Shown one piece after another: positions 26,181 to 33,680 of a stretch of 39,178 nt of DNA. This DNA comes from a virus. The stretch is taken from UHGV virus genome UHGV-0034768; one strand, given 5' to 3'. Position numbers and translations under genes: made by a program. Within the stretch, counting starts at the first letter, position 1. Each line of letters starts with the position of its first letter. The notes under the pieces are model-generated. The model was not told the DNA's origin, ran no database searches, and saw only the letters and a program-made list of their open reading frames with translations.

Positions 26181-27944
26181 TTGAGTAAAGACTTAGTGGC
26201 GCGTCAGGCGCTAATGACTGCCCGTATGAAGGCAGACTTCGTGTTCTTCCTGTTCGTCCTGTGGAAAGCTCTGTCACTCCCAGTCCCGACTCGCTGTCAG
26301 ATTGACATGGCGAAGAAACTATCGGCTGGGGACAACAGGCGTTTCATCCTACAGGCGTTCCGTGGTATCGGGAAGTCCTTCATTACGTGTGCCTTCGTGG
26401 TATGGAAACTATGGAACAACCCAGACTTGAAGTTCATGATTGTGTCGGCCTCAAAGGAGCGAGCCGATGCTAACTCCATCTTCATCAAGCGCATCATCGA
26501 CCTCATGCCTCAGCTTCAGGAACTCAAACCTAAGCAGGGACAGCGAGATGCGGTTATCAGCTTCGACGTTGGACCAGCCAAGCCAGACCACTCACCCTCG
26601 GTTAAGTCCGTTGGTATCACTGGTCAGTTGACTGGTAGTCGTGCTGACATCCTGATTGCCGATGACGTGGAGGTTCCTAACAACTCTGCGACTCAGGCTG
26701 CGCGAGATCGACTTTCAGAGCTTGTGAAAGAGTTCGACGCTATCCTGAAGCCGGGAGGTACAATCATCTATCTGGGTACTCCTCAGAACGAGATGACCCT
26801 ATATCGTGAGCTGGAAGGCCGTGGGTACACCACTACTATCTGGCCAGCTCGTTATCCACGCGACAGGAAAGACTGGCAGTCTTACGGCGACCGTCTGGCA
26901 CCGATGCTTCAGGCAGAGCTAGAAGAGGACCCTGAGTCATTCTACTGGCGTCCTACCGATGAGGTACGATTCGATGATACGGACCTGAAGGAACGTGAGC
27001 TATCCTATGGTAAAGCTGGCTTCGCTCTACAGTTCATGCTTAACCCGAACCTGAGTGATGCTGAGAAGTACCCTCTGAAGCTCCGTGACCTTATCGTAGC
27101 AGACTTGGACCCAGCGTCCAGCCCAATGGTATACCAATGGTTGCCAAACCCTCAGAACAAGCGTGAGGACGTTCCTAACGTTGGACTCATGGGTGACTCA
27201 TACCACACGTATCAGACTGTAGGTTCTGCCTTCAGCTCATACACCCAGAAGATTCTGGTCATTGACCCTAGTGGTCGTGGTAAGGATGAAACTGGATATG
27301 CGGTACTGTATCAACTCAACGGCTACATCTTCGCTATGGAAGTTGGTGGTATGCGTGGAGGGTATGAAGACTCTACGCTGGAAGCATTGGCTAAGATTGG
27401 TCGTAAGTGGAAGGTCAACGAATACGTCATTGAGGGTAACTTCGGTGATGGTATGTACCTTGAGCTATTCAAGCCTGTAGCGGCCCGTATCCATCCTGCG
27501 GCTGTAACTGAAGTGAAGAGTAAGGGTCAGAAAGAACTCCGCATCTGTGACGTTCTGGAGCCTATCATGGGGTCTCACAGACTTATTGTTAACGCTGCTG
27601 CTATCGTCCAAGACTACCAGACAGCTGCCGACAAGGATGGTGTGCGTAACCCTATCTACTCTCTCTTCTACCAGATGACCCGTATCTCTCGTGAACGTGG
27701 AGCCTTGGCACACGATGACAGACTTGATGCGCTGGCTATAGGTGTACAGTTCTTCGTTGAGTCTATGGCTAAGGATGCCAACAAAGGTGAACGTGAAGTC
27801 ACTGAGGAGTGGCTTGAGGAACAGATGGAGAACCCACGGAAAGGCTTCGAGTCCATCCACACTGAGTTCTGGGACAATGGGGTCCGGGTAACTCACGATA
27901 CGGACGACGAGCTGGGACTAGGGTCATACGTTACGTTCCACTAG
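26181..27944 (+). CDS. gp19: terminase large subunit (T7 gp19-like)
   Basis: 587 aa; TTG start with AAGGAGGTGA RBS; blocks [68 protein letters not shown] match T7 gp19. Confidence 0.95.
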
Positions 27945-28241: not shown

Positions 28242-28400
28242 ATGGCAAAGACCAAAGCTGTACTTAAAGCTCTGGCGACCAATCGAGCTACATACAGGTT
28301 TCTTGCTGCTGTTCTACTTGCTGCTGGCGTTACTGCTGGAAGTCAGTGGGTCGGGTGGGTCGAGACTCTCGTATGTTCTCTGGTGTCTCAGTGTAATTAA
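28242..28400 (+). CDS. small hydrophobic protein (positional analogue of T7 gene 19.5)
   Basis: 52-aa ORF not in the supplied track (under 60 aa); strong RBS ACAGGAGG 8 nt upstream; predicted TM-like segment. Confidence 0.5.
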   Translation: MAKTKAVLKALATNRATYRFLAAVLLAAGVTAGSQWVGWVETLVCSLVSQCN

Positions 28401-28559
28401 CGCAATCATGGTAACGATTCACGAGCGGAAGACCTAAGGTCAGTACGTGGATAAAGACTCACTCTACTGACCTTAGCTACTGTAGTCAAGGACTTTAGGT
28501 AACACCTTAAGAGAAGCTCACTTAGGGTCATCCTACTTATTGGTCTATCCTAGTGTCGC

Positions 28560-28605
28560 CTGACCTACGGTCCTTGACCTACAGTGGCTGTGGCCTACAG
28601 TAGTG
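28560..28605. repeat. short direct repeats (GACCTACGG / CCTACAGT x3) to the right of the putative terminal repeat
   Basis: Read directly; analogous to the T7 CCTAAAG-type repeat arrays flanking the terminal repeat. Confidence 0.6.
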
Positions 28606-28639
28606 ACGATGAGTTTTGGACCAAAAGTTTGAGACCACA

Positions 28640-28835
28640 TCTCACAGTTCAAGAACTTCAAGTCTCCCCATAGGCCCTCTTTCAGTCCAGACCAAAGGCC
28701 CTCCCCAGTCTATCATAAGGTTGGACCTATGGTCAAGACGTTAGGTCGACGATAGGTCTAGGCTATGGCTGGAGGTCAGACGATAGGTAGGGACTATTGG
28801 TTGTCTCCGAGTCTCTATCTGTATACCATAGGTCT
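28640..28835. repeat. candidate direct terminal repeat region (single collapsed copy); probable physical left end near 28640
   Basis: TCTCACAGT...CTCCCCATAGG at 28640 and ...TGTCTCCGAGTCTCTATCTGTATACCATAGGTCTC resemble the T7 left-end terminal repeat (TCTCACAGTGTACGG...CCCCCATAGGGGG ... TGTCTCTCTGTGTCCCTATCTGTTACAGTCTCC). Confidence 0.4.
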
Positions 28836-28839
28836 CAAC

Positions 28840-28926
28840 AACCTACAGTCCTACAGCCTACAGTCTAACAACCTACAGTCACCGACCATCGGTAAAGCCA
28901 TTACCTACAGTCAAAAGACCTACAGT
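28840..28926. repeat. array of about six CCTACAGT short direct repeats
   Basis: Copies at 28842, 28850, 28857, 28872, 28904, 28919; counterpart of the T7 CCTAAAG array between the terminal repeat and promoter A1. Confidence 0.7.
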
Positions 28927-29039
28927 TAATAGACACAAAGCTATAGACTTAAGGTCTAAGACATGTTAGTCAAAGACTATATCCTCTTAGTCACTATGGG
29001 GCCGACGATAGCTTAATCGATATTATTTAAGATTACCTA

Positions 29040-29068
29040 TTGACTATAGGTCTAGACTATGGCCTAAT
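29040..29068 (+). promoter_or_regulatory. candidate host sigma70 early promoter (A1-like)
   Basis: TTGACT at 29040-29045, then a 17-nt spacer and a weak -10 (CCTAAT); collinear with T7 A1 (TTGACTTAAAGTCTAACCTATAGGATACT). Confidence 0.4.
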
Positions 29069-29180
29069 AGCTTCCGTCAACACGACACGGCAACAACCGG
29101 ATAGTGAAGACGCCGGGTCATCCCGGTTAAGTAGACAGCCTGATAAGTCATACGAACAACAGGCAGATGACAGAAAGCAG

Positions 29181-29210
29181 TTGACAAGATGTACCGACTT
29201 AAAGTAGTAT
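29181..29210 (+). promoter_or_regulatory. candidate host sigma70 early promoter (A3-like)
   Basis: TTGACA at 29181-29186, 18-nt spacer, TAGTAT at 29205-29210; flanking sequence CCGGATA.GTAGACAGCCTGATAAGTC closely matches the T7 A2/A3 region. Confidence 0.5.
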
Positions 29211-29398
29211 GTACCACATCGAAACAACAGTGATGACCAACACTGAAATGGTCTACCTGAAGTCCTCTGACTGAAGGGAATGCTCTTTAACAATCTGGAT
29301 AAAACTCTTAATGTGCGCCGATAGCGACTAACTACAGGGCCTTTGAGTATACATCTGAAGGCCCTGACTGATAGTCACTAACTTAAAGGATGGACACT

Positions 29399-29644
29399 AT
29401 GAAACACTTAAGCACAATCACTAATCGCAATGAAATATTCGTGAACACTAAAGGTTATGCGTGGATTCAGCTTAAAGAGCTGACAGGAGCGCGTCACCGT
29501 GTGGTAGTGCGCAAGGTCTCAAGCAAGCCGTTCAGCAACTACAGCGTAGATACTGTGCGTATAGACAACGAGACCTACCTGATAGACTCGCAGATAACCG
29601 TGCGTCCTACAGCGGGCGTCCCAGCTCCTTATTTCGCTAACTGA
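29399..29644 (+). CDS. hypothetical early protein (first gene after the early promoters, upstream of ocr)
   Basis: 82-aa ORF (second ATG chosen, AAAGGA 7 nt upstream); preceded by a structured leader; no recognisable domain. Confidence 0.6.
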   Translation: MKHLSTITNRNEIFVNTKGYAWIQLKELTGARHRVVVRKVSSKPFSNYSVDTVRIDNETYLIDSQITVRPTAGVPAPYFAN

Positions 29645-29732
29645 GAGTGATTAACTACAGGTCGTTAGACTCATAGCGGCCTGACTGATAGCCACTAACA
29701 TACGCACTAACAACTTTTGAGAGGATATAACT

Positions 29733-30077
29733 ATGGAACGTAACGCTAACGCATACTATGAGCTGCTGGCTGCAACCGTTGAAGCATTTAACGAGCGTAT
29801 TCAGTATGACGAAATAGCTGAAGGCGATGAGTACCACGATGCACTGCATGAGGTCGTAGACGGTCAGGTCCCGCATTATTACCACGAGATTTTCACGGTG
29901 ATGGCTGCTGATGGTATAGACCACGAGTTTGAGGACTCTGGGCTGATGCCTGAGACCAAGGACGTAACGCGTATACTGCAAGCTCGCATCTATGAGGCAT
30001 TGTATAACGACGTGTCTGATAGCTCGGATGTGGTCTGGTTTGAGGCTGAAGAGGAAGACGAAGAGGACTGCGAGTGA
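29733..30077 (+). CDS. ocr: Ocr, DNA-mimic anti-restriction protein (T7 gp0.3-like)
   Basis: 114 aa, very acidic; blocks [49 protein letters not shown] match T7 Ocr ([41 protein letters not shown]). Confidence 0.95.
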
Positions 30078-30226
30078 TAGTAACTTATGGTCTCTGCAAG
30101 CACCACGTCACCAACGCCAGGATTTTGGTCAAGACCGGGCGGTTAAACCACGATGCGGCTATGCGTCACCTGAAAGCGGTCTACGAGGACCGCAAGCGCA
30201 CCCACGACAGCTTACACGCTGAGTGA
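30074..30226 (+). CDS. possible gp0.4-like small protein (T7 gp0.4 inhibits FtsZ)
   Basis: 50-codon ORF not in the supplied track, GTG start overlapping the ocr stop; product ..TYGL....[13 protein letters not shown]....LHAE resembles recalled T7 gp0.4 (..QYGL....AMAQLKELYENNK....ESAE). Confidence 0.45.
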
Positions 30227-30292
30227 TAGACGAGAGGTCATCGACTGATAGGTGGCCTCAAAGATTATCACTTACATTGATAGGAGTTAACT

Positions 30293-30382
30293 ATGAACAT
30301 CGGTTACTGGGTATGCCTGTCTCCGGTCATCTTTCTGATAGCTTGGGGCCTTCTGGACGCAATCAAGCGAGGGTCATTCTAA
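30293..30382 (+). CDS. 29-aa hydrophobic peptide (early, gene 0.5-like position)
   Basis: MNIGYWVCLSPVIFLIAWGLLDAIKRGSF with TAGGAG RBS 7 nt upstream; short, so uncertain. Confidence 0.35.
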   Translation: MNIGYWVCLSPVIFLIAWGLLDAIKRGSF

Positions 30383-30576
30383 TGAGCTGGATACTTCTGG
30401 TCATTGGCTACGGGTTAATACTCGCAGTCATCATGAAAGACATCAACAAAGCGCGTACAGTCTACAACTTCAACTATGTGCGTCTGGGTCGCTGGACTGT
30501 ACGTCAACCTAACGGGCGATTCATGCGCAACTTAGCGAACGTCTGGGATATAGCAACTATCGGGAGTAAACTGTAA
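30382..30576 (+). CDS. 64-aa early membrane protein
   Basis: MSWILLVIGYGLILAVIM... single TM segment; TAATG overlap with the upstream peptide; the track ORF 30223-30576 is likely a 5' over-extension. Confidence 0.5.
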   Translation: MSWILLVIGYGLILAVIMKDINKARTVYNFNYVRLGRWTVRQPNGRFMRNLANVWDIATIGSKL

Positions 30577-30902
30577 TGAACAAGTCATACGGGATTAATC
30601 TGGTACACTCTATGGACGCAGAAATGAACATGTTAAGCCTACTGGCTACCGGGTATCGTCACGGAACGTCAAGTCACACCGCACGTCAACAGCAGGAGCG
30701 GGACCGTGTACTACAGGCACGACTCCAGGCAGAGGGCCATAAGGCTGAGCTGATGTGGCTGGCGTATGGTGGACGACCTATCACCGACGATGGTAAACTT
30801 CTGGTCTCAGGCTGGAAGGCGATAGACCAACGGTCAACCATCAAGCACACGACTCACGGTGACTTCAGTCATCTACACGCTAACCCATTGATATGCAAGT
30901 GA
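30576..30902 (+). CDS. hypothetical early protein (108 aa) at the position of the absent gp0.7 kinase
   Basis: ORF with ATG overlapping the upstream stop; no kinase motifs; immediately upstream of the RNAP gene. Confidence 0.6.
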   Translation: MNKSYGINLVHSMDAEMNMLSLLATGYRHGTSSHTARQQQERDRVLQARLQAEGHKAELMWLAYGGRPITDDGKLLVSGWKAIDQRSTIKHTTHGDFSHLHANPLICK

Positions 30903-30907
30903 TTCTG

Positions 30908-30930
30908 ACTTAACTATCACTATAGGACTC
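30908..30930 (+). promoter_or_regulatory. phage RNAP promoter directly upstream of the RNAP gene, ACTTAACTATCACTATAGGACTC
   Basis: Consensus match; +1 G at 30925, 74 nt upstream of the RNAP start codon. Confidence 0.75.
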
Positions 30931-30998
30931 AAGGTCTAAGACTCCAAGTGAAAGACCAAAGAGACTTAAGTGAAAGACTAATAACAAGGACTTTAAGT

Positions 30999-33680
30999 AT
31001 GAGCGTCATCTCCATTGACAAACACGACTTCTCTGATGTGTCTAACGCTATTGAGCCGTTTAACCTGCTGGCTGACCACTACGGGCAAGACCTTGCAGTC
31101 AAGCAACTTCAGCTTGAGCATGAGGCATACACTGAAGGCGAGCGACGTTTCATCAAGAACCTTGAGCGTCAGACAGAGCGCGGTGAACTGGCAGACAATC
31201 AGGTCGCCAAGCCTTTGATGCAGACTCTGGTCCCTAAGATTGCGCAAGCCGTCAAGGAGTGGCATGACGGTCCAGACGGGAAGATGTCAACATCTCGTCC
31301 TAGCGTAGCGTTCACCATGTTGAGCACTGAAGAGAAGGCCGTCAAGGACCGCTCTCTGCGCATCTCCTGTGAGTCTGCTGCGGTTATCATACTGAAGGTC
31401 ATCCTCTCCAAGCTGGTAAAGCCTGAAGGGATACCGATTACACCGATGGCCTCAGCGATAGGTCGCACACTTGAGGACGAAATCCGCTTCGGTCGCATCC
31501 GTGACAAGGAGAAGGAGCACTTCAAGAAGGCGATAGCTGAGAACCTGAACAAGCGAGCCGGGGCATCCTACAAGAAAGCCTACATGCAAGCTGTTGAGAC
31601 CTCCATGCTTGAGCAAGGTCAACTGGAAGATGCGTGGGGAACTTGGAGTCCGACCGAGGCGGTCCATGTTGGCATCAAGATGCTTGAGATTGTCATCCAG
31701 TCCACTCAACTGGTAGAGCTTAAGCGTTATGGTGCTGGCAATGCAGCGGCTGATGTTGAGATGGTCCACCTATCAGACTTCTGGGTCAAGAAGATGGCCC
31801 AACGTGGCTTCAGCCTTGCGGGTATCGCTCCAGTCTATCAACCTTGCGTAGTTCCACCTAAGCCGTGGACGGGTGTCGTAGGCGGTGGGTATTGGGCCAA
31901 AGGACGCAGACCGTTGCCACTGATTCGCTTAGGGTCTAAGTCTGCGGTAGCACGTTATGAGGACGTGTACATGCCTGAAGTCTATGACGCTGTGAACATC
32001 ATCCAGAATACACCTTGGAAAGTTAACAAGAAGGTGTTGGACGTGGTGAACATGGTCGAGAAGCTGAACAACACGCCTATTGATGATATCCCTCAGATGG
32101 AGCCACTGAAGCCTGAAGACTATGCGGGTGAGACTGAAGAGGAACTCAAGGCATGGAAGAAGGCTGCTGCTGGTATCTACCGCCGAGAGAAGGCCCGGCA
32201 GTCACGTAGATTGTCACTGAGCTTTATCGTTAACCAGGCTAACAAGTTCTCTCAGTTCAAGGCCATCTGGTTCCCGTATAACATGGACTGGCGCGGTCGC
32301 GTATACGCTGTGCCGATGTTCAACCCTCAGGGTAACGACATGCAAAAGGGTCTCCTTACTCTGGCAGTCGGTAAGCCTATTGGTGCTGATGGTTTCAAAT
32401 GGCTGAAGGTCCACGGTGCAAACTGTGCGGGTATTGATAAAGTCACCTTCGAGGAGCGCATCAAGTGGGTGGAAGACAACCACGACAACATCATGACTAC
32501 TGCTAAGGCACCGATGGACAGCATTGAGTGGTGGGGTAAGTTAGACTCTCCGTTCTGCTTCCTCGCGTTCTGCTTCGAGTATGCTGGCGTAATGCACCAC
32601 GGCCTATCTTACTCTTGCTCGCTACCGATAGCTTTCGATGGGTCCTGCTCTGGGATTCAGCACTTCAGCGCGATGCTTCGAGATCACATCGGTGGACATG
32701 CAGTAAACTTGACGCCATCCGGTAAGGTCCAAGACATCTACCGCATCGTATCCGACCGCATTGAGGAGGAACTTAAAGTCCTGCTGGTTAACGGTACGGA
32801 CAACGAGATGGTAACTCACGAGGATAAGAAAACTGGTGAGATTACCGAGCGTCTCAAGCTGGGGACACGAGAGCTGTCCCGTCAGTGGCTGACCTACGGT
32901 ATGTCACGCAAGGTTACTAAGCGTTCGGTTATGACTCTGGCCTACGGGTCGAAAGAGTACGGCTTCGCAGACCAAGTTTACGAGGACATCGTGATGCCAG
33001 CGATTGACTCAGGGTCTGGTGCCATGTTCACCGAGCCAAGCCAAGCGTCTCGTTTCATGGCTAAGATGATTTGGGAAGCTGTGAGTGTGACCGTAGTCGC
33101 TGCGGTTGACGCAATGAAGTGGCTTCAAGGTGCTGCTAAGCTGCTGGCTGCTGAAGTAAAGGACAAGAAGACAGGCGAAATACTGAAGCCTTGCCTTCCG
33201 GTACACTGGGTAACACCTGATGGTTTCCCGGTCTGGCAGGAATACCGCAAGAAGGATACAACCCGTCTGAACCTGATGTTCTTAGGGTCGTTCAACCTTC
33301 AGCCTACCGTCAACAGGGGTACGAAGAAAGAGCTGGACAAGCACAAGCAGGAGTCAGGCATTAGCCCGAACTTCGTCCACTCACAAGATGGTAGCCACCT
33401 CCGCAAGACTGTAGTCCACACGCACCGCAAGTATGGCGTAATGTCCTTCGCAGTGATTCACGATAGCTTCGGGACCATCCCGGCTGACGCTGAGTATCTG
33501 TTCCGTGGGGTCCGTGAGACTATGGTAGAGACCTACCGCGACAATGATGTGCTGCTTGACTTCTACGAGCAGTTCGAATACCAGCTTCACGAGAGCCAGC
33601 GCGACAAGTTGCCTGAGCTTCCGAAGAAAGGTAAACTGAACATAGAAGACATCTTGTCTTCAGACTTTGCATTCGCTTAA
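30999..33680 (+). CDS. gp1: DNA-directed RNA polymerase, single-subunit (T7 gp1-like)
   Basis: Start at MSVISIDKHDFSD (T7 MNTINIAKNDFSD) with AAGGA RBS; extensive identity to T7 RNAP including PWTGVVGGGYWA, FPYNMDWRGRVYAV, NCSLP.AFDGSCSGIQHFSAMLRD, HDSFGT, and C-terminal FAFA. Confidence 0.97.
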   Translation: MSVISIDKHDFSDVSNAIEPFNLLADHYGQDLAVKQLQLEHEAYTEGERRFIKNLERQTERGELADNQVAKPLMQTLVPKIAQAVKEWHDGPDGKMSTSRPSVAFTMLSTEEKAVKDRSLRISCESAAVIILKVILSKLVKPEGIPITPMASAIGRTLEDEIRFGRIRDKEKEHFKKAIAENLNKRAGASYKKAYMQAVETSMLEQGQLEDAWGTWSPTEAVHVGIKMLEIVIQSTQLVELKRYGAGNAAADVEMVHLSDFWVKKMAQRGFSLAGIAPVYQPCVVPPKPWTGVVGGGYWAKGRRPLPLIRLGSKSAVARYEDVYMPEVYDAVNIIQNTPWKVNKKVLDVVNMVEKLNNTPIDDIPQMEPLKPEDYAGETEEELKAWKKAAAGIYRREKARQSRRLSLSFIVNQANKFSQFKAIWFPYNMDWRGRVYAVPMFNPQGNDMQKGLLTLAVGKPIGADGFKWLKVHGANCAGIDKVTFEERIKWVEDNHDNIMTTAKAPMDSIEWWGKLDSPFCFLAFCFEYAGVMHHGLSYSCSLPIAFDGSCSGIQHFSAMLRDHIGGHAVNLTPSGKVQDIYRIVSDRIEEELKVLLVNGTDNEMVTHEDKKTGEITERLKLGTRELSRQWLTYGMSRKVTKRSVMTLAYGSKEYGFADQVYEDIVMPAIDSGSGAMFTEPSQASRFMAKMIWEAVSVTVVAAVDAMKWLQGAAKLLAAEVKDKKTGEILKPCLPVHWVTPDGFPVWQEYRKKDTTRLNLMFLGSFNLQPTVNRGTKKELDKHKQESGISPNFVHSQDGSHLRKTVVHTHRKYGVMSFAVIHDSFGTIPADAEYLFRGVRETMVETYRDNDVLLDFYEQFEYQLHESQRDKLPELPKKGKLNIEDILSSDFAFA

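What the first reader, a model, noticed from the sequence alone, without database searches (positions are those of the whole stretch)
29399..29644. Unknown first early gene upstream of ocr
In T7, ocr (0.3) is the first gene entering the cell. Here an 82-aa ORF precedes ocr, directly after the host-type early promoters and a structured leader. Genes in this leading position are typically anti-defence or host-takeover factors.
Basis: inference. Interest (0 to 1): 0.6.

Follow-up and report, generated by a model that had tools for sequence, protein, structure and literature searches.

The report
Uncharacterised early phage gene before ocr
The small gene ahead of the anti-restriction gene ocr is a real, conserved early gene of a K1F-like (T7-family) phage, already catalogued as "gp0.2" with unknown function; it is a mobile gene cassette and a reasonable but unproven candidate for a protein that disarms a host defence.

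Summary
Window 29399-29644 encodes an 81-aa protein (not 82), 9.2 kDa, pI 9.9. It lies about 760 nt from the genome's left end. Upstream are two host-type promoters, a boxA-like element and a T7 R0.3-like RNase III hairpin. Ocr follows directly.

The gene is already catalogued. It is 94% identical to K1F gp0.2 and belongs to PHROG 10124 (function unknown). It is certainly coding: homologues keep full length in four unrelated phage groups, with saturated synonymous and low non-synonymous divergence.

The AlphaFold model is confident (pLDDT 86), a small all-beta fold. It has no significant match in the PDB, in Pfam, or to any characterised protein.

New here:
- In about a dozen Autographiviridae lineages, family members sit at or near the first early position, usually 0-3 genes from Ocr or a SAM lyase.
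- The gene is a cassette, [RBS-ORF-RNase III hairpin]. It is present in about a third of Kayfunavirus records, and its order relative to another cassette is swapped between phages.
- Its synonymous divergence is about 5-fold lower than that of the adjacent ocr, which suggests recent spread.

Function remains inferred: a counter-defence binder (~0.45) or a host-takeover factor (~0.25). Interest is moderate.

The parts
28640..28816 (+). Genome left end and terminal-repeat equivalent (approximate)
   Evidence: Aligns from base 1 of the EcoDS1 genome, whose terminal repeat is annotated 1-178. This places the gp0.2 start about 760 nt from the entering end.
29040..29068 (+). A1-like host (sigma-70) promoter: TTGACT, 17 nt spacer, CCTAAT
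   Evidence: Aligns with T7 A1 and with EcoDS1's annotated host RNAP promoter at 469-505. The -10 element matches only 4 of 6 positions, so the consensus scan did not list it.
29181..29210 (+). A3-like host promoter: TTGACA, 18 nt spacer, TAGTAT
   Evidence: Best consensus match in the region, 10 of 12 positions. Aligns with T7 A3.
29281..29293 (+). boxA-like element TGCTCTTTAACAA in the early leader
   Evidence: GCTCTTTAACAATCTGG is identical in T7, EcoDS1, Peacock and the window. The resemblance to rrn/lambda boxA is from my own knowledge. Function was not tested.
29319..29382 (+). Type A RNase III-type hairpin (T7 R0.3 equivalent) upstream of gp0.2
   Evidence: -25.6 kcal/mol, z = -5.96. 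Aligns with T7 R0.3. Present in every Kayfunavirus examined, including those lacking gp0.2. The consensus structure has 18 pairs, 7 of them with compensatory changes.
29386..29390 (+). Shine-Dalgarno sequence AAGGA, 8 nt before the ATG
   Evidence: Read directly from the sequence. Conserved in K1F, Peacock and Vec13.
29399..29644 (+). gp0.2-family gene: 81 aa, 9.2 kDa, pI 9.9, small all-beta protein with a conserved but disordered C-terminal APYFAN tail
   Evidence: PHROG 10124, E 3.3e-39. 93.8% identical to K1F gp0.2. Under purifying selection between lineages. AF2 pLDDT 85.9 with six strands. No PDB, Pfam, NCBIfam or PADLOC match. Protein properties.
29642..29699 (+). Type B RNase III-type hairpin. 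It begins at the gp0.2 stop codon and forms the 3' border of the cassette.
   Evidence: Ten-pair upper stem. Near-identical 58-nt copies follow each inserted ORF in K1F, vB_EcoP_F, Peacock and Vec13. EcoDS1 lacks exactly the stretch from after hairpin A to the end of hairpin B.
29733..30077 (+). ocr (gene 0.3), 114 aa, pI 4.05
   Evidence: PF08684, E 1.7e-31; PHROG 2568, E 7e-54.
30074..30226 (+). gp0.35 homologue. Its GTG start overlaps the ocr stop codon.
   Evidence: PHROG 5058, E 8e-25. Corresponds to K1F gene 0.35.
30218..30278 (+). Third RNase III-type hairpin, upstream of the next small genes
   Evidence: Folds at -16.9 kcal/mol. Fits the same consensus structure as the others.
30910..30927 (+). 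First phage-RNAP promoter downstream of the left end, just before gene 1
   Evidence: Exact match to the EcoDS1 phi promoter core. There are no matches between 28058 and 30910.

Best explanation
Shown: window 29399-29644 is a genuine protein-coding class I (host-RNAP-transcribed) early gene of a Kayfunavirus. It is the orthologue of K1F gp0.2 (PHROG 10124). It lies on the A1/A3 early transcript as a self-contained cassette, [SD-ORF-RNase III hairpin], inserted between the R0.3-type hairpin and ocr.

Inferred from what is known of T7: RNase III cuts the polycistronic early RNA at the flanking hairpins. This would release a separate gp0.2 mRNA with a protective 3' hairpin, so gp0.2 would be made in the first minutes of infection, alongside or before Ocr.

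Inferred function: the 9-kDa basic all-beta protein has no enzyme-like features. It most likely works stoichiometrically by binding a host macromolecule. Its conserved but disordered C-terminal (T/S)APYF tail is a candidate docking motif. The most likely target is a strain-variable Enterobacteriaceae defence or abortive-infection component acting at or soon after DNA entry, which would complement the anti-restriction genes it travels with.

Confidence by step:
- Real early accessory gene of the gp0.2 family: about 0.97.
- Cassette mobility through hairpin homology: about 0.7.
- Counter-defence role specifically: about 0.45.
For: Coding and family membership:
- Full-length PHROG 10124 match.
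- 119 phage records and 67 protein clusters carry homologues.
- dS is saturated while dN is 0.2-0.7 between lineages.

Early class I status:
- Promoters, boxA-like element and hairpin are homologous to the T7 leader.
- No phage promoter occurs before 30910.
- The left end is at about 28640.

Accessory and mobile character:
- About 71 of about 221 Kayfunavirus-level records carry it.
- EcoDS1, PRF-SP3 and JSS1 have ocr directly after hairpin A.
- Gene order is gp0.2-X in Peacock but X-gp0.2 in Vec13, and each ORF is followed by its own type B hairpin.
- Within the genus, pS is 0.042 for gp0.2 against 0.222 for the adjacent ocr. Fisher p = 1.7e-4 for window vs K1F.
- Homologues occur in Przondovirus, Ermolevavirus, N4-like Gamaleyavirus early regions and Phapecoctavirus.

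Association with anti-defence genes:
- In 9 of 12 Autographiviridae contexts the gene lies 0-3 genes from Ocr or a SAM lyase.
- In phiKT and PGT2 the SAM lyase ORF ends one base before the gp0.2-like start.
- Only one Salmonella phage record carries the gene, although many Salmonella Kayfunavirus records exist.
- No homologue was found in plasmids or E. coli genomes.

Structure:
- Confident novel-looking small beta fold. The tail is conserved in sequence but has pLDDT below 60.
Against: - No experiment and no homology links the family to any defence system.
- PADLOC, Pfam, NCBIfam, PDB sequence search and fold searches are all empty.
- Leading-end position and closeness to Ocr/SAM lyase may only reflect that all class I genes are packed into about 2 kb.
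- T7 class I genes also include non-defence host-takeover factors (0.4, 0.6), which are equally patchy.
- The 200-gene accessory-gene screen of Silas et al. did not include this family, so there is no indirect phenotype.
- The N4-like and Phapecoctavirus contexts contain only unknown genes.
- RNase III cleavage is inferred from homology, not shown.
Confidence: 0.45

Rival explanations
1. Host-takeover factor. gp0.2 binds and inhibits a conserved housekeeping protein of the host (cell division, cytoskeleton, transcription, replication or proteolysis). This would parallel T7 gp0.4 (FtsZ), gp0.6 (MreB), gp2 (RNAP) or N4 gp8 (clamp loader), and would improve phage yield without countering an immune system.
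For: - It is a small early non-enzymatic protein in the class I region.
- It transfers between unrelated virulent phages that share enterobacterial hosts.
- From my own knowledge, several T7 class I products are of this kind.
- It sits in the N4-like early block that also holds host-shutoff genes.
Against: - A universally useful inhibitor of a conserved target would not be expected to be missing from two thirds of the genus and from nearly all Salmonella-infecting members.
- Repeated tight linkage with anti-restriction genes, including an abutting SAM lyase in phiKT/PGT2, fits anti-defence clustering somewhat better.
- No fold similarity to any solved host-takeover protein.
Confidence: 0.25
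2. Nucleic-acid-binding regulator of the phage's own early programme. The basic small beta-barrel-like protein would bind RNA or DNA (for example the boxA/hairpin leader or the entering DNA end). It would thereby modulate antitermination, mRNA stability or translation, or protect the DNA end.
For: - pI 9.9.
- It lies immediately downstream of a boxA-like element and structured RNA.
Against: - Homologues function in phages with entirely different transcription strategies (N4-like virion RNAP, Phapecoctavirus myoviruses) that lack this leader.
- Congeners without the gene have the same leader.
Confidence: 0.1
3. Inter-phage competition factor, or a largely selfish cassette. gp0.2 would exclude or handicap co-infecting phages or satellites. 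Alternatively it spreads mainly because the hairpin-flanked cassette recombines easily, with little benefit to the carrier.
For: - Precise presence/absence and order polymorphism at repeated hairpins.
- Very low synonymous divergence, which indicates recent spread.
- Elevated within-genus pN/pS of 0.69, against 0.15 for ocr.
Against: - Between lineages the protein is strongly constrained: full length is retained at 36-75% identity with saturated dS. A neutral passenger would not show this.
- The family keeps invariant residues across more than 20 divergent representatives.
Confidence: 0.1
4. Spurious ORF: a non-coding leader that merely happens to be open.
For: It is short (81 codons), and many annotators call it only 'hypothetical'. 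The neighbouring annotated 'gp0.1' of K1F does look spurious.
Against: - Full-length conservation across four phage groups with saturated synonymous change.
- A proper SD sequence and start codon.
- A confident AF2 model.
- A 189-aa fusion variant keeps the domain.
Confidence: 0.01

Closest known systems
K1F gp0.2 (CAJ29341.1) / PHROG 10124, function unknown
   Same: - 93.8% amino-acid identity and the same 81-aa length.
- Same position between the R0.3-type hairpin and ocr.
- Same flanking hairpins.
The window gene is an orthologue.
   Different: There are five substitutions (I13V, L28M, D56N, R69S, P75S, written window-to-K1F) against a single synonymous change. K1F's downstream gp0.3 is annotated as longer (169 aa vs 114 aa).
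T7 class I early genes and their RNase III-processed mRNAs (R0.3 site, genes 0.3-0.7)
   Same: - Host promoters A1/A3, the boxA-like element and the R0.3-type hairpin are homologous to T7's.
- The gene is transcribed only by host RNAP.
- It is a small non-essential-type early protein next to ocr.
   Different: T7 has no gene between R0.3 and 0.3. Here an extra ORF with its own hairpin is inserted. The protein has no sequence or fold similarity to any T7 class I product.
Ocr and SAM lyase (gene 0.3 of T7 and of T3): leading-end anti-restriction proteins
   Same: Same genomic niche and expression timing. gp0.2-family genes lie 0-3 genes from one or the other in 9 of 12 Autographiviridae contexts.
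   Different: - Ocr is an acidic DNA mimic (pI 4.05 here) and mostly helical. gp0.2 is basic (pI 9.9) and all-beta.
- gp0.2 has no SAM lyase domain.
- No anti-restriction activity has been shown for gp0.2.
T4-type PeSL 'mobile regulatory cassettes' (early promoter plus stem-loop repeats flanking shuffled early genes). Recalled from my own knowledge, not tested here.
   Same: Small early genes are bounded by repeated regulatory stem-loops. Presence/absence and order polymorphisms have breakpoints in those repeats.
   Different: Here the repeat is an RNase III processing hairpin without its own promoter, and it lies within a single host-RNAP transcript of a T7-family podovirus.

Membership tests
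K1F gp0.2 family (PHROG 10124) | Significant full-length match to the family profile | tested here: met
   E 3.3e-39, residues 1-81 matched to profile positions 1-77 of 77. 93.8% identity to K1F gp0.2.
K1F gp0.2 family (PHROG 10124) | Conserved core residues (L4-S5, R38-K39, F45-S46-N47, Y60-L-I-D63-S) | tested here: met
   All are present in the window protein. S5 and R38 are invariant, and L4, F45, S46 and N47 are at least 90% conserved across 25 divergent members.
K1F gp0.2 family (PHROG 10124) | Single small domain (65-90 aa) encoded in a phage early region | tested here: met
   The protein is 81 aa. One 189-aa fusion is the exception (P0083).
T7-group class I (host-RNAP) early genes | Located downstream of sigma-70 promoters at the entering end, upstream of gene 1, with no phage promoter in between | tested here: met
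T7-group class I (host-RNAP) early genes | mRNA delimited by RNase III processing hairpins | tested here: inconclusive
   The hairpins are homologous to T7 R0.3 and have 7 covarying pairs. Cleavage itself cannot be tested with these tools.
DNA-mimic anti-restriction proteins (Ocr, ArdA) | Highly acidic surface mimicking B-DNA, and a match to PF08684 or the ArdA family | tested here: not met
   pI 9.9. No Pfam hit. All-beta model.
Experimentally defined anti-defence proteins (any) | Demonstrated inhibition of a named defence system, or homology to a protein with such activity | not testable with these tools
   No homology to any solved or annotated protein. Absent from the 200-gene accessory-gene screen. 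No literature found.
OB-fold / cold-shock-type nucleic-acid-binding domains | Significant structural superposition on a five-stranded OB barrel | tested here: not met
Stem-loop-flanked mobile early-gene cassettes (PeSL-like) | Repeated regulatory stem-loops at both borders, with indel and order polymorphism breaking in the repeats | tested here: met
Stem-loop-flanked mobile early-gene cassettes (PeSL-like) | Each cassette carries its own early promoter | tested here: not met
   The only consensus-scan match near the cassette is a weak 9-of-12 match (29391-29418) that spans the gp0.2 start codon, not the hairpin. No promoter-like site lies within either hairpin.

The most novel reading that the evidence does not exclude
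gp0.2 is the founding member of a new-fold family of 'first-strike' inhibitors. Its product would neutralise a defence or abortive-infection system of Enterobacteriaceae, possibly one not yet described, that acts on entering phage DNA before or in parallel with restriction. The gene spreads as an RNase III-hairpin cassette among T7-like, N4-like and rV5/phAPEC8-like phages. The conserved disordered (T/S)APYF tail would be the docking motif.
Probability: 0.3. Interest if true: 0.65.

Novelty: new member of a known kind. Interest (0 to 1): 0.4.

Why it matters
If gp0.2 is a counter-defence protein, it would add a new fold and probably a new target to the anti-defence repertoire. It would come from a family that therapeutic-type coliphages and Klebsiella phages exchange freely, which could help explain or engineer host range.

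The family offers three natural handles for experiments:
- Isogenic relatives with and without the gene.
- A swapped-order pair of phages (Peacock and Vec13).
- A separable C-terminal tail.

Independently of function, the cassette architecture is notable. Each inserted early ORF carries its own RNase III hairpin, and the near-identical hairpins mark indel and reordering breakpoints. This gives a concrete mechanism for how T7-family phages remodel their leading region. It also gives a simple rule for finding further accessory early genes: look between type A and type B hairpins.

If the gene proves to be a host-takeover factor instead, the result is more ordinary.

Tried and rejected
- Pfam, NCBIfam and PADLOC scans of the protein gave no hits.
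- A Pfam scan of 25 divergent family members found no recurrent weak family.
- An HMM search against PDB sequences found nothing.
- The afdb50 library was unavailable.
- Rfam found nothing in 28400-31000.
- An exhaustive profile search of 1.84 billion representatives found only 21 hits. All were small phage proteins, apart from two giant repetitive proteins that match the Ser/Thr/Ala-rich tail and are judged spurious.
- No homologues in plasmids or in 5,426 E. coli genomes, so no prophage or plasmid leading-region copy exists.
- Literature: no paper mentions K1F gp0.2. The K1F genome paper is not held.
- The accessory-gene screen of Silas et al. lists protein sequences, but none contains the family motifs. 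I had considered that its 'orf24' (same accessory region as ocr) or 'aop1' might be gp0.2. Their sequences differ, so this was rejected.
- JSS1_004, an anti-Dnd factor of a phage named JSS1, turned out to be a gp0.7-type kinase. The GenBank JSS1 record has neither a kinase nor gp0.2, and its 81-aa ORF is unrelated.
- The search for related loci with the most diverse alignment failed. With the closer alignment it returned only 11 loci, mostly duplicates of GenBank phages.
- K1F 'gp0.1' as a possible earlier gene was rejected. In the window the ORF stops after 17 codons, and it overlaps the promoters.
- A lambda N-like antiterminator idea, prompted by the boxA neighbour, is kept only as a low-probability rival. 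Homologues occur in phages without this leader.

Full report
WHAT THE WINDOW IS. The window is a circularly permuted genome of a K1F-like T7-family podovirus (genus Kayfunavirus). The stretch 28900-30300 is 91-94% identical to vB_EcoP_F, K1F, Peacock, Vec13 and many others. The large terminase subunit ends at 27944. Alignment with the EcoDS1 genome puts the physical left end at about 28640. The single-subunit RNA polymerase gene starts near 30999.

THE OBSERVATION. The ORF is present exactly where stated: ATG at 29399 and TGA at 29642-29644. It encodes 81 residues, not 82. AAGGA lies 8 nt upstream of the ATG. The alternative ATG at 29390 has no ribosome-binding site, and homologues from other lineages align from the 29399 start. 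Ocr follows at 29733-30077 (PF08684, E 1.7e-31).

The upstream region aligns with the T7 early leader. Its elements are:
- An A1-like promoter (29040-29068).
- An A3-like promoter (29181-29210, 10 of 12 consensus positions).
- TGCTCTTTAACAA (29281-29293), which is identical in T7.
- A 64-nt hairpin (29319-29382; -25.6 kcal/mol, z = -5.96) that aligns with the T7 R0.3 RNase III site.

The T7 A2 segment is missing from the window. A second hairpin (29642-29699) separates the ORF from ocr, and a third (30218-30278) follows gp0.35. A consensus fold of nine such hairpins, including T7 R0.3, gives the classic lower stem, internal loop and upper stem. It has 18 pairs, 7 of them with compensatory changes. 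The phage-promoter core of this genus occurs ten times in the window, but not between 28058 and 30910. The ORF is therefore transcribed by host RNA polymerase only.

IS IT A GENE? Yes.
- It matches PHROG 10124 over its full length (E 3.3e-39) and is 93.8% identical to K1F gp0.2.
- tblastn finds it in 119 phage records.
- The 5.8-billion-protein collection holds 67 clusters.
- An exhaustive profile search of 1.84 billion representatives finds 21, nearly all of 65-90 aa.
- Between lineages, synonymous sites are saturated (pS 0.7-1.0) while pN is 0.18-0.46. That is the signature of a translated, constrained protein.

WHAT THE PROTEIN LOOKS LIKE. It is 9.2 kDa with pI 9.9 and has no hydrophobic segment. 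AlphaFold2, run with a 22-sequence alignment, gives pLDDT 85.9 and pTM 0.72. The model is a short N-terminal turn followed by six beta strands (12-15, 20-29, 32-45, 48-55, 58-61, 67-70). The tail (71-81) has low confidence.

The tail is nevertheless conserved in sequence as (T/S)A..APYF(A/S)N in Kayfunavirus, Przondovirus, Phapecoctavirus, Ermolevavirus and some N4-like members. Shorter, distant members lack it. The core invariants are L4-S5, R38-K39, F45-S46-N47 and Y60-L-I-D63-S.

WHERE THE FAMILY LIVES. There are four unrelated phage groups:
- (i) Autographiviridae. This covers Kayfunavirus and Klebsiella Przondovirus, where it is the first gene after the promoters. It also covers Ermolevavirus phiKT/PGT2 and nine metagenomic T7-like lineages.
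- (ii) N4-like Gamaleyavirus. It lies in the left-end block between the gp2-like gene and the RNAPII subunit genes. From my knowledge of N4, this is the early region.
- (iii) Phapecoctavirus myoviruses of about 150 kb. It lies in a run of about 20 small same-strand ORFs of unknown function.
- (iv) No copy in plasmids or in E. coli chromosomes.

In the Autographiviridae contexts the gene is the first or second called gene after the non-coding stretch of about 1.2-1.5 kb at the genome ends. In 9 of 12 contexts it lies 0-3 genes from Ocr (PF08684) or a SAM lyase (PF23780). In phiKT/PGT2 the SAM lyase ORF ends one base before the gp0.2-like start. One lineage has a 189-aa protein that carries the domain with an unknown C-terminal extension, and it is again the first gene.

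IT IS AN ACCESSORY, MOBILE CASSETTE. About 221 phage records carry an RNA polymerase gene at least 80% identical to the window's. About 71 carry gp0.2 at 80% identity or more. Only one Salmonella record has it, although many Salmonella Kayfunaviruses exist.

EcoDS1, PRF-SP3 and the GenBank JSS1 record go straight from the leader hairpin to ocr, as T7 does. A three-way alignment shows that EcoDS1 lacks exactly the stretch from just after hairpin A to the end of hairpin B.

A census of hairpins shows two types. A 64-nt type A hairpin is present in every genome. A 58-nt type B hairpin starts at the stop codon of each inserted ORF. Peacock reads A-gp0.2-B-X-B'-ocr, whereas Vec13 reads A-X-B'-gp0.2-B-ocr. 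X is the same 92-aa protein in both (PHROG 9817, 92% identical). So the unit [SD-ORF-hairpin B] is gained, lost and reordered. The shared hairpin flanks (TAACTACAGG...CCTGACTGATAG(T/C)CACTAAC) are the obvious recombination substrates, though this last step is inference.

Consistent with recent movement, within-genus synonymous divergence of gp0.2 is 0.042. The adjacent ocr has 0.222, gp0.35 has 0.19 and gene 1 has 0.11-0.24. For window vs K1F, 1 of 55 synonymous sites differ in gp0.2 and 17 of 66 in ocr (Fisher p = 1.7e-4). Within-genus pN/pS is 0.69, against 0.15 for ocr. The window copy differs from its relatives by 5-8 non-synonymous changes and only 1-3 synonymous ones, several of them in residues 69-75 just before the APYF motif. 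The counts are small, so I read this as relaxed or diversifying change after a recent spread, not as proven positive selection.

HOW IT MOST LIKELY WORKS.
- Shown: the gene sits on the host-RNAP early transcript and is bracketed by R0.3-type hairpins.
- Inferred from T7 biology: RNase III cuts at the internal loops and releases a separate gp0.2 mRNA whose 3' hairpin stabilises it. The protein would then appear within the first minutes, at least as early as Ocr.
- Inferred from the protein: it is too small and featureless to be an enzyme. A compact beta domain with a conserved flexible tail suggests a stoichiometric binder.

Evidence favouring a counter-defence target:
- Patchy, host-correlated distribution within a genus.
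- Horizontal spread among unrelated virulent phages of the same hosts.
- Repeated linkage to Ocr or SAM lyase.

Against this, nothing ties the protein to a specific defence system, and class I regions also encode host-takeover proteins. I therefore put counter-defence at about 0.45, host takeover at about 0.25, a nucleic-acid-binding regulatory role at about 0.1, a competition or selfish-cassette role at about 0.1, and a spurious ORF at about 0.01.

COMPARISON WITH WHAT IS KNOWN. The gene is a member of the K1F gp0.2/PHROG 10124 family, and all the family features I tested were met. It belongs to the class of T7-group class I early genes by position and promoter type. RNase III processing is supported only by homology and covariation. 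It is not a DNA mimic (basic, all-beta) and not a SAM lyase. The cassette organisation resembles the PeSL-flanked early-gene cassettes of T4-type phages (recalled from my own knowledge). It differs in that the repeat is a processing hairpin without its own promoter.

I found no paper assigning a function. The 200-gene accessory-gene screen of Silas et al. (bioRxiv 10.1101/2023.04.06.535777) does not contain the family. JSS1_004 (PMC12345140) is a kinase and is unrelated.

VERDICT. The feature is real and ordinary in kind: an already catalogued but uncharacterised early accessory gene. What this analysis adds is the family's consistent leading-end niche across Autographiviridae, its hairpin-delimited cassette mobility, and evidence for a recent spread. 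Together these make it a good, cheap experimental target. Novelty: new member of a known kind. Interest: 0.4.

Noticed in passing
window 29319-29382, 29642-29699, 30218-30278; L018 696-1425; L020 848-1577: The Kayfunavirus early leader is an array of [ORF + 58-nt RNase III-type hairpin] cassettes placed behind a constant 64-nt hairpin. The order of gp0.2 and a 92-aa gene (PHROG 9817) is swapped between phages Peacock and Vec13. EcoDS1, PRF-SP3 and JSS1 have no cassette at all.
   Followed up: yes
window 29399-29644 compared with 29733-30041: Within the genus, synonymous divergence of gp0.2 (0.042) is about 5-fold lower than that of the adjacent ocr (0.222), with Fisher p = 1.7e-4. pN/pS is 0.69 for gp0.2 and 0.15 for ocr. 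This suggests recent horizontal spread of the cassette. Constraint on the nucleotide sequence itself is not excluded.
   Followed up: partly
window 28963-29016 and 29040-29207 (equivalent to K1F 'gp0.1', AM084414 352-567): The K1F-annotated gene 0.1 (called 'alpha,alpha-trehalase' in vB_EcoP_F) overlaps the A1/A3 promoter region. In the window it is interrupted by a stop after 17 codons, so it is probably a spurious annotation.
   Followed up: partly
L005 3505-4249; L027 2671-3427 (phiKT, PGT2): In Ermolevavirus a SAM lyase (PF23780; mis-annotated as 'tail tape measure protein' in phiKT) ends one base before the gp0.2-like ORF. This suggests translational coupling of the two genes.
   Followed up: partly
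L009 6001-6570; L010 2522-3091 (protein P0083): A 189-aa variant fuses the gp0.2 domain to an unknown C-terminal region of about 110 aa, with only a sub-threshold DUF7447 hit. It is the first early gene of a metagenomic T7-like phage that has a gp0.7-type kinase but no recognisable Ocr or SAM lyase.
   Followed up: partly
window 28820-28930: Just inside the left terminal repeat there is an array of short CCTACAGT / ACCATAAGT-type repeats. Copy number differs from EcoDS1, which has a longer array. It resembles the short repeat arrays near T7 genome ends.
   Followed up: no
window 29733-30077 compared with K1F 1114-1623: Ocr is 114 aa here (110 aa in Vec13 and EcoDS1), but K1F gp0.3 is annotated at 169 aa. 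The proteins align only over the first 103 residues or so, so the C-terminus of Ocr is variable in this genus.
   Followed up: no
window 30294-30383 and 30383-30578: Two small ORFs after the third hairpin encode peptides with hydrophobic, probably membrane-spanning segments. The first (29 aa here) corresponds in position to K1F gene 0.36, the second to K1F gene 0.37. Their function is unknown.
   Followed up: no
window 30948 vs 30999: The mechanical ORF for the RNA polymerase starts at GTG 30948. Alignment with K1F and Vec13 gene 1 indicates that the real start is the ATG at 30999 (MSVISIDKHDF...). The phage promoter lies at 30910-30927.
   Followed up: partly
one search hit list: 'Acinetobacter phage vB_Aba_01KA' (39.6 kb, gp0.2 92.6% identical) and 'Pseudomonas phage PsgM04F' (151 kb, 72.8% identical) carry near-coliphage copies. 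The host labels of these records may be unreliable, or the phages may have an unusually broad lineage distribution.
   Followed up: no
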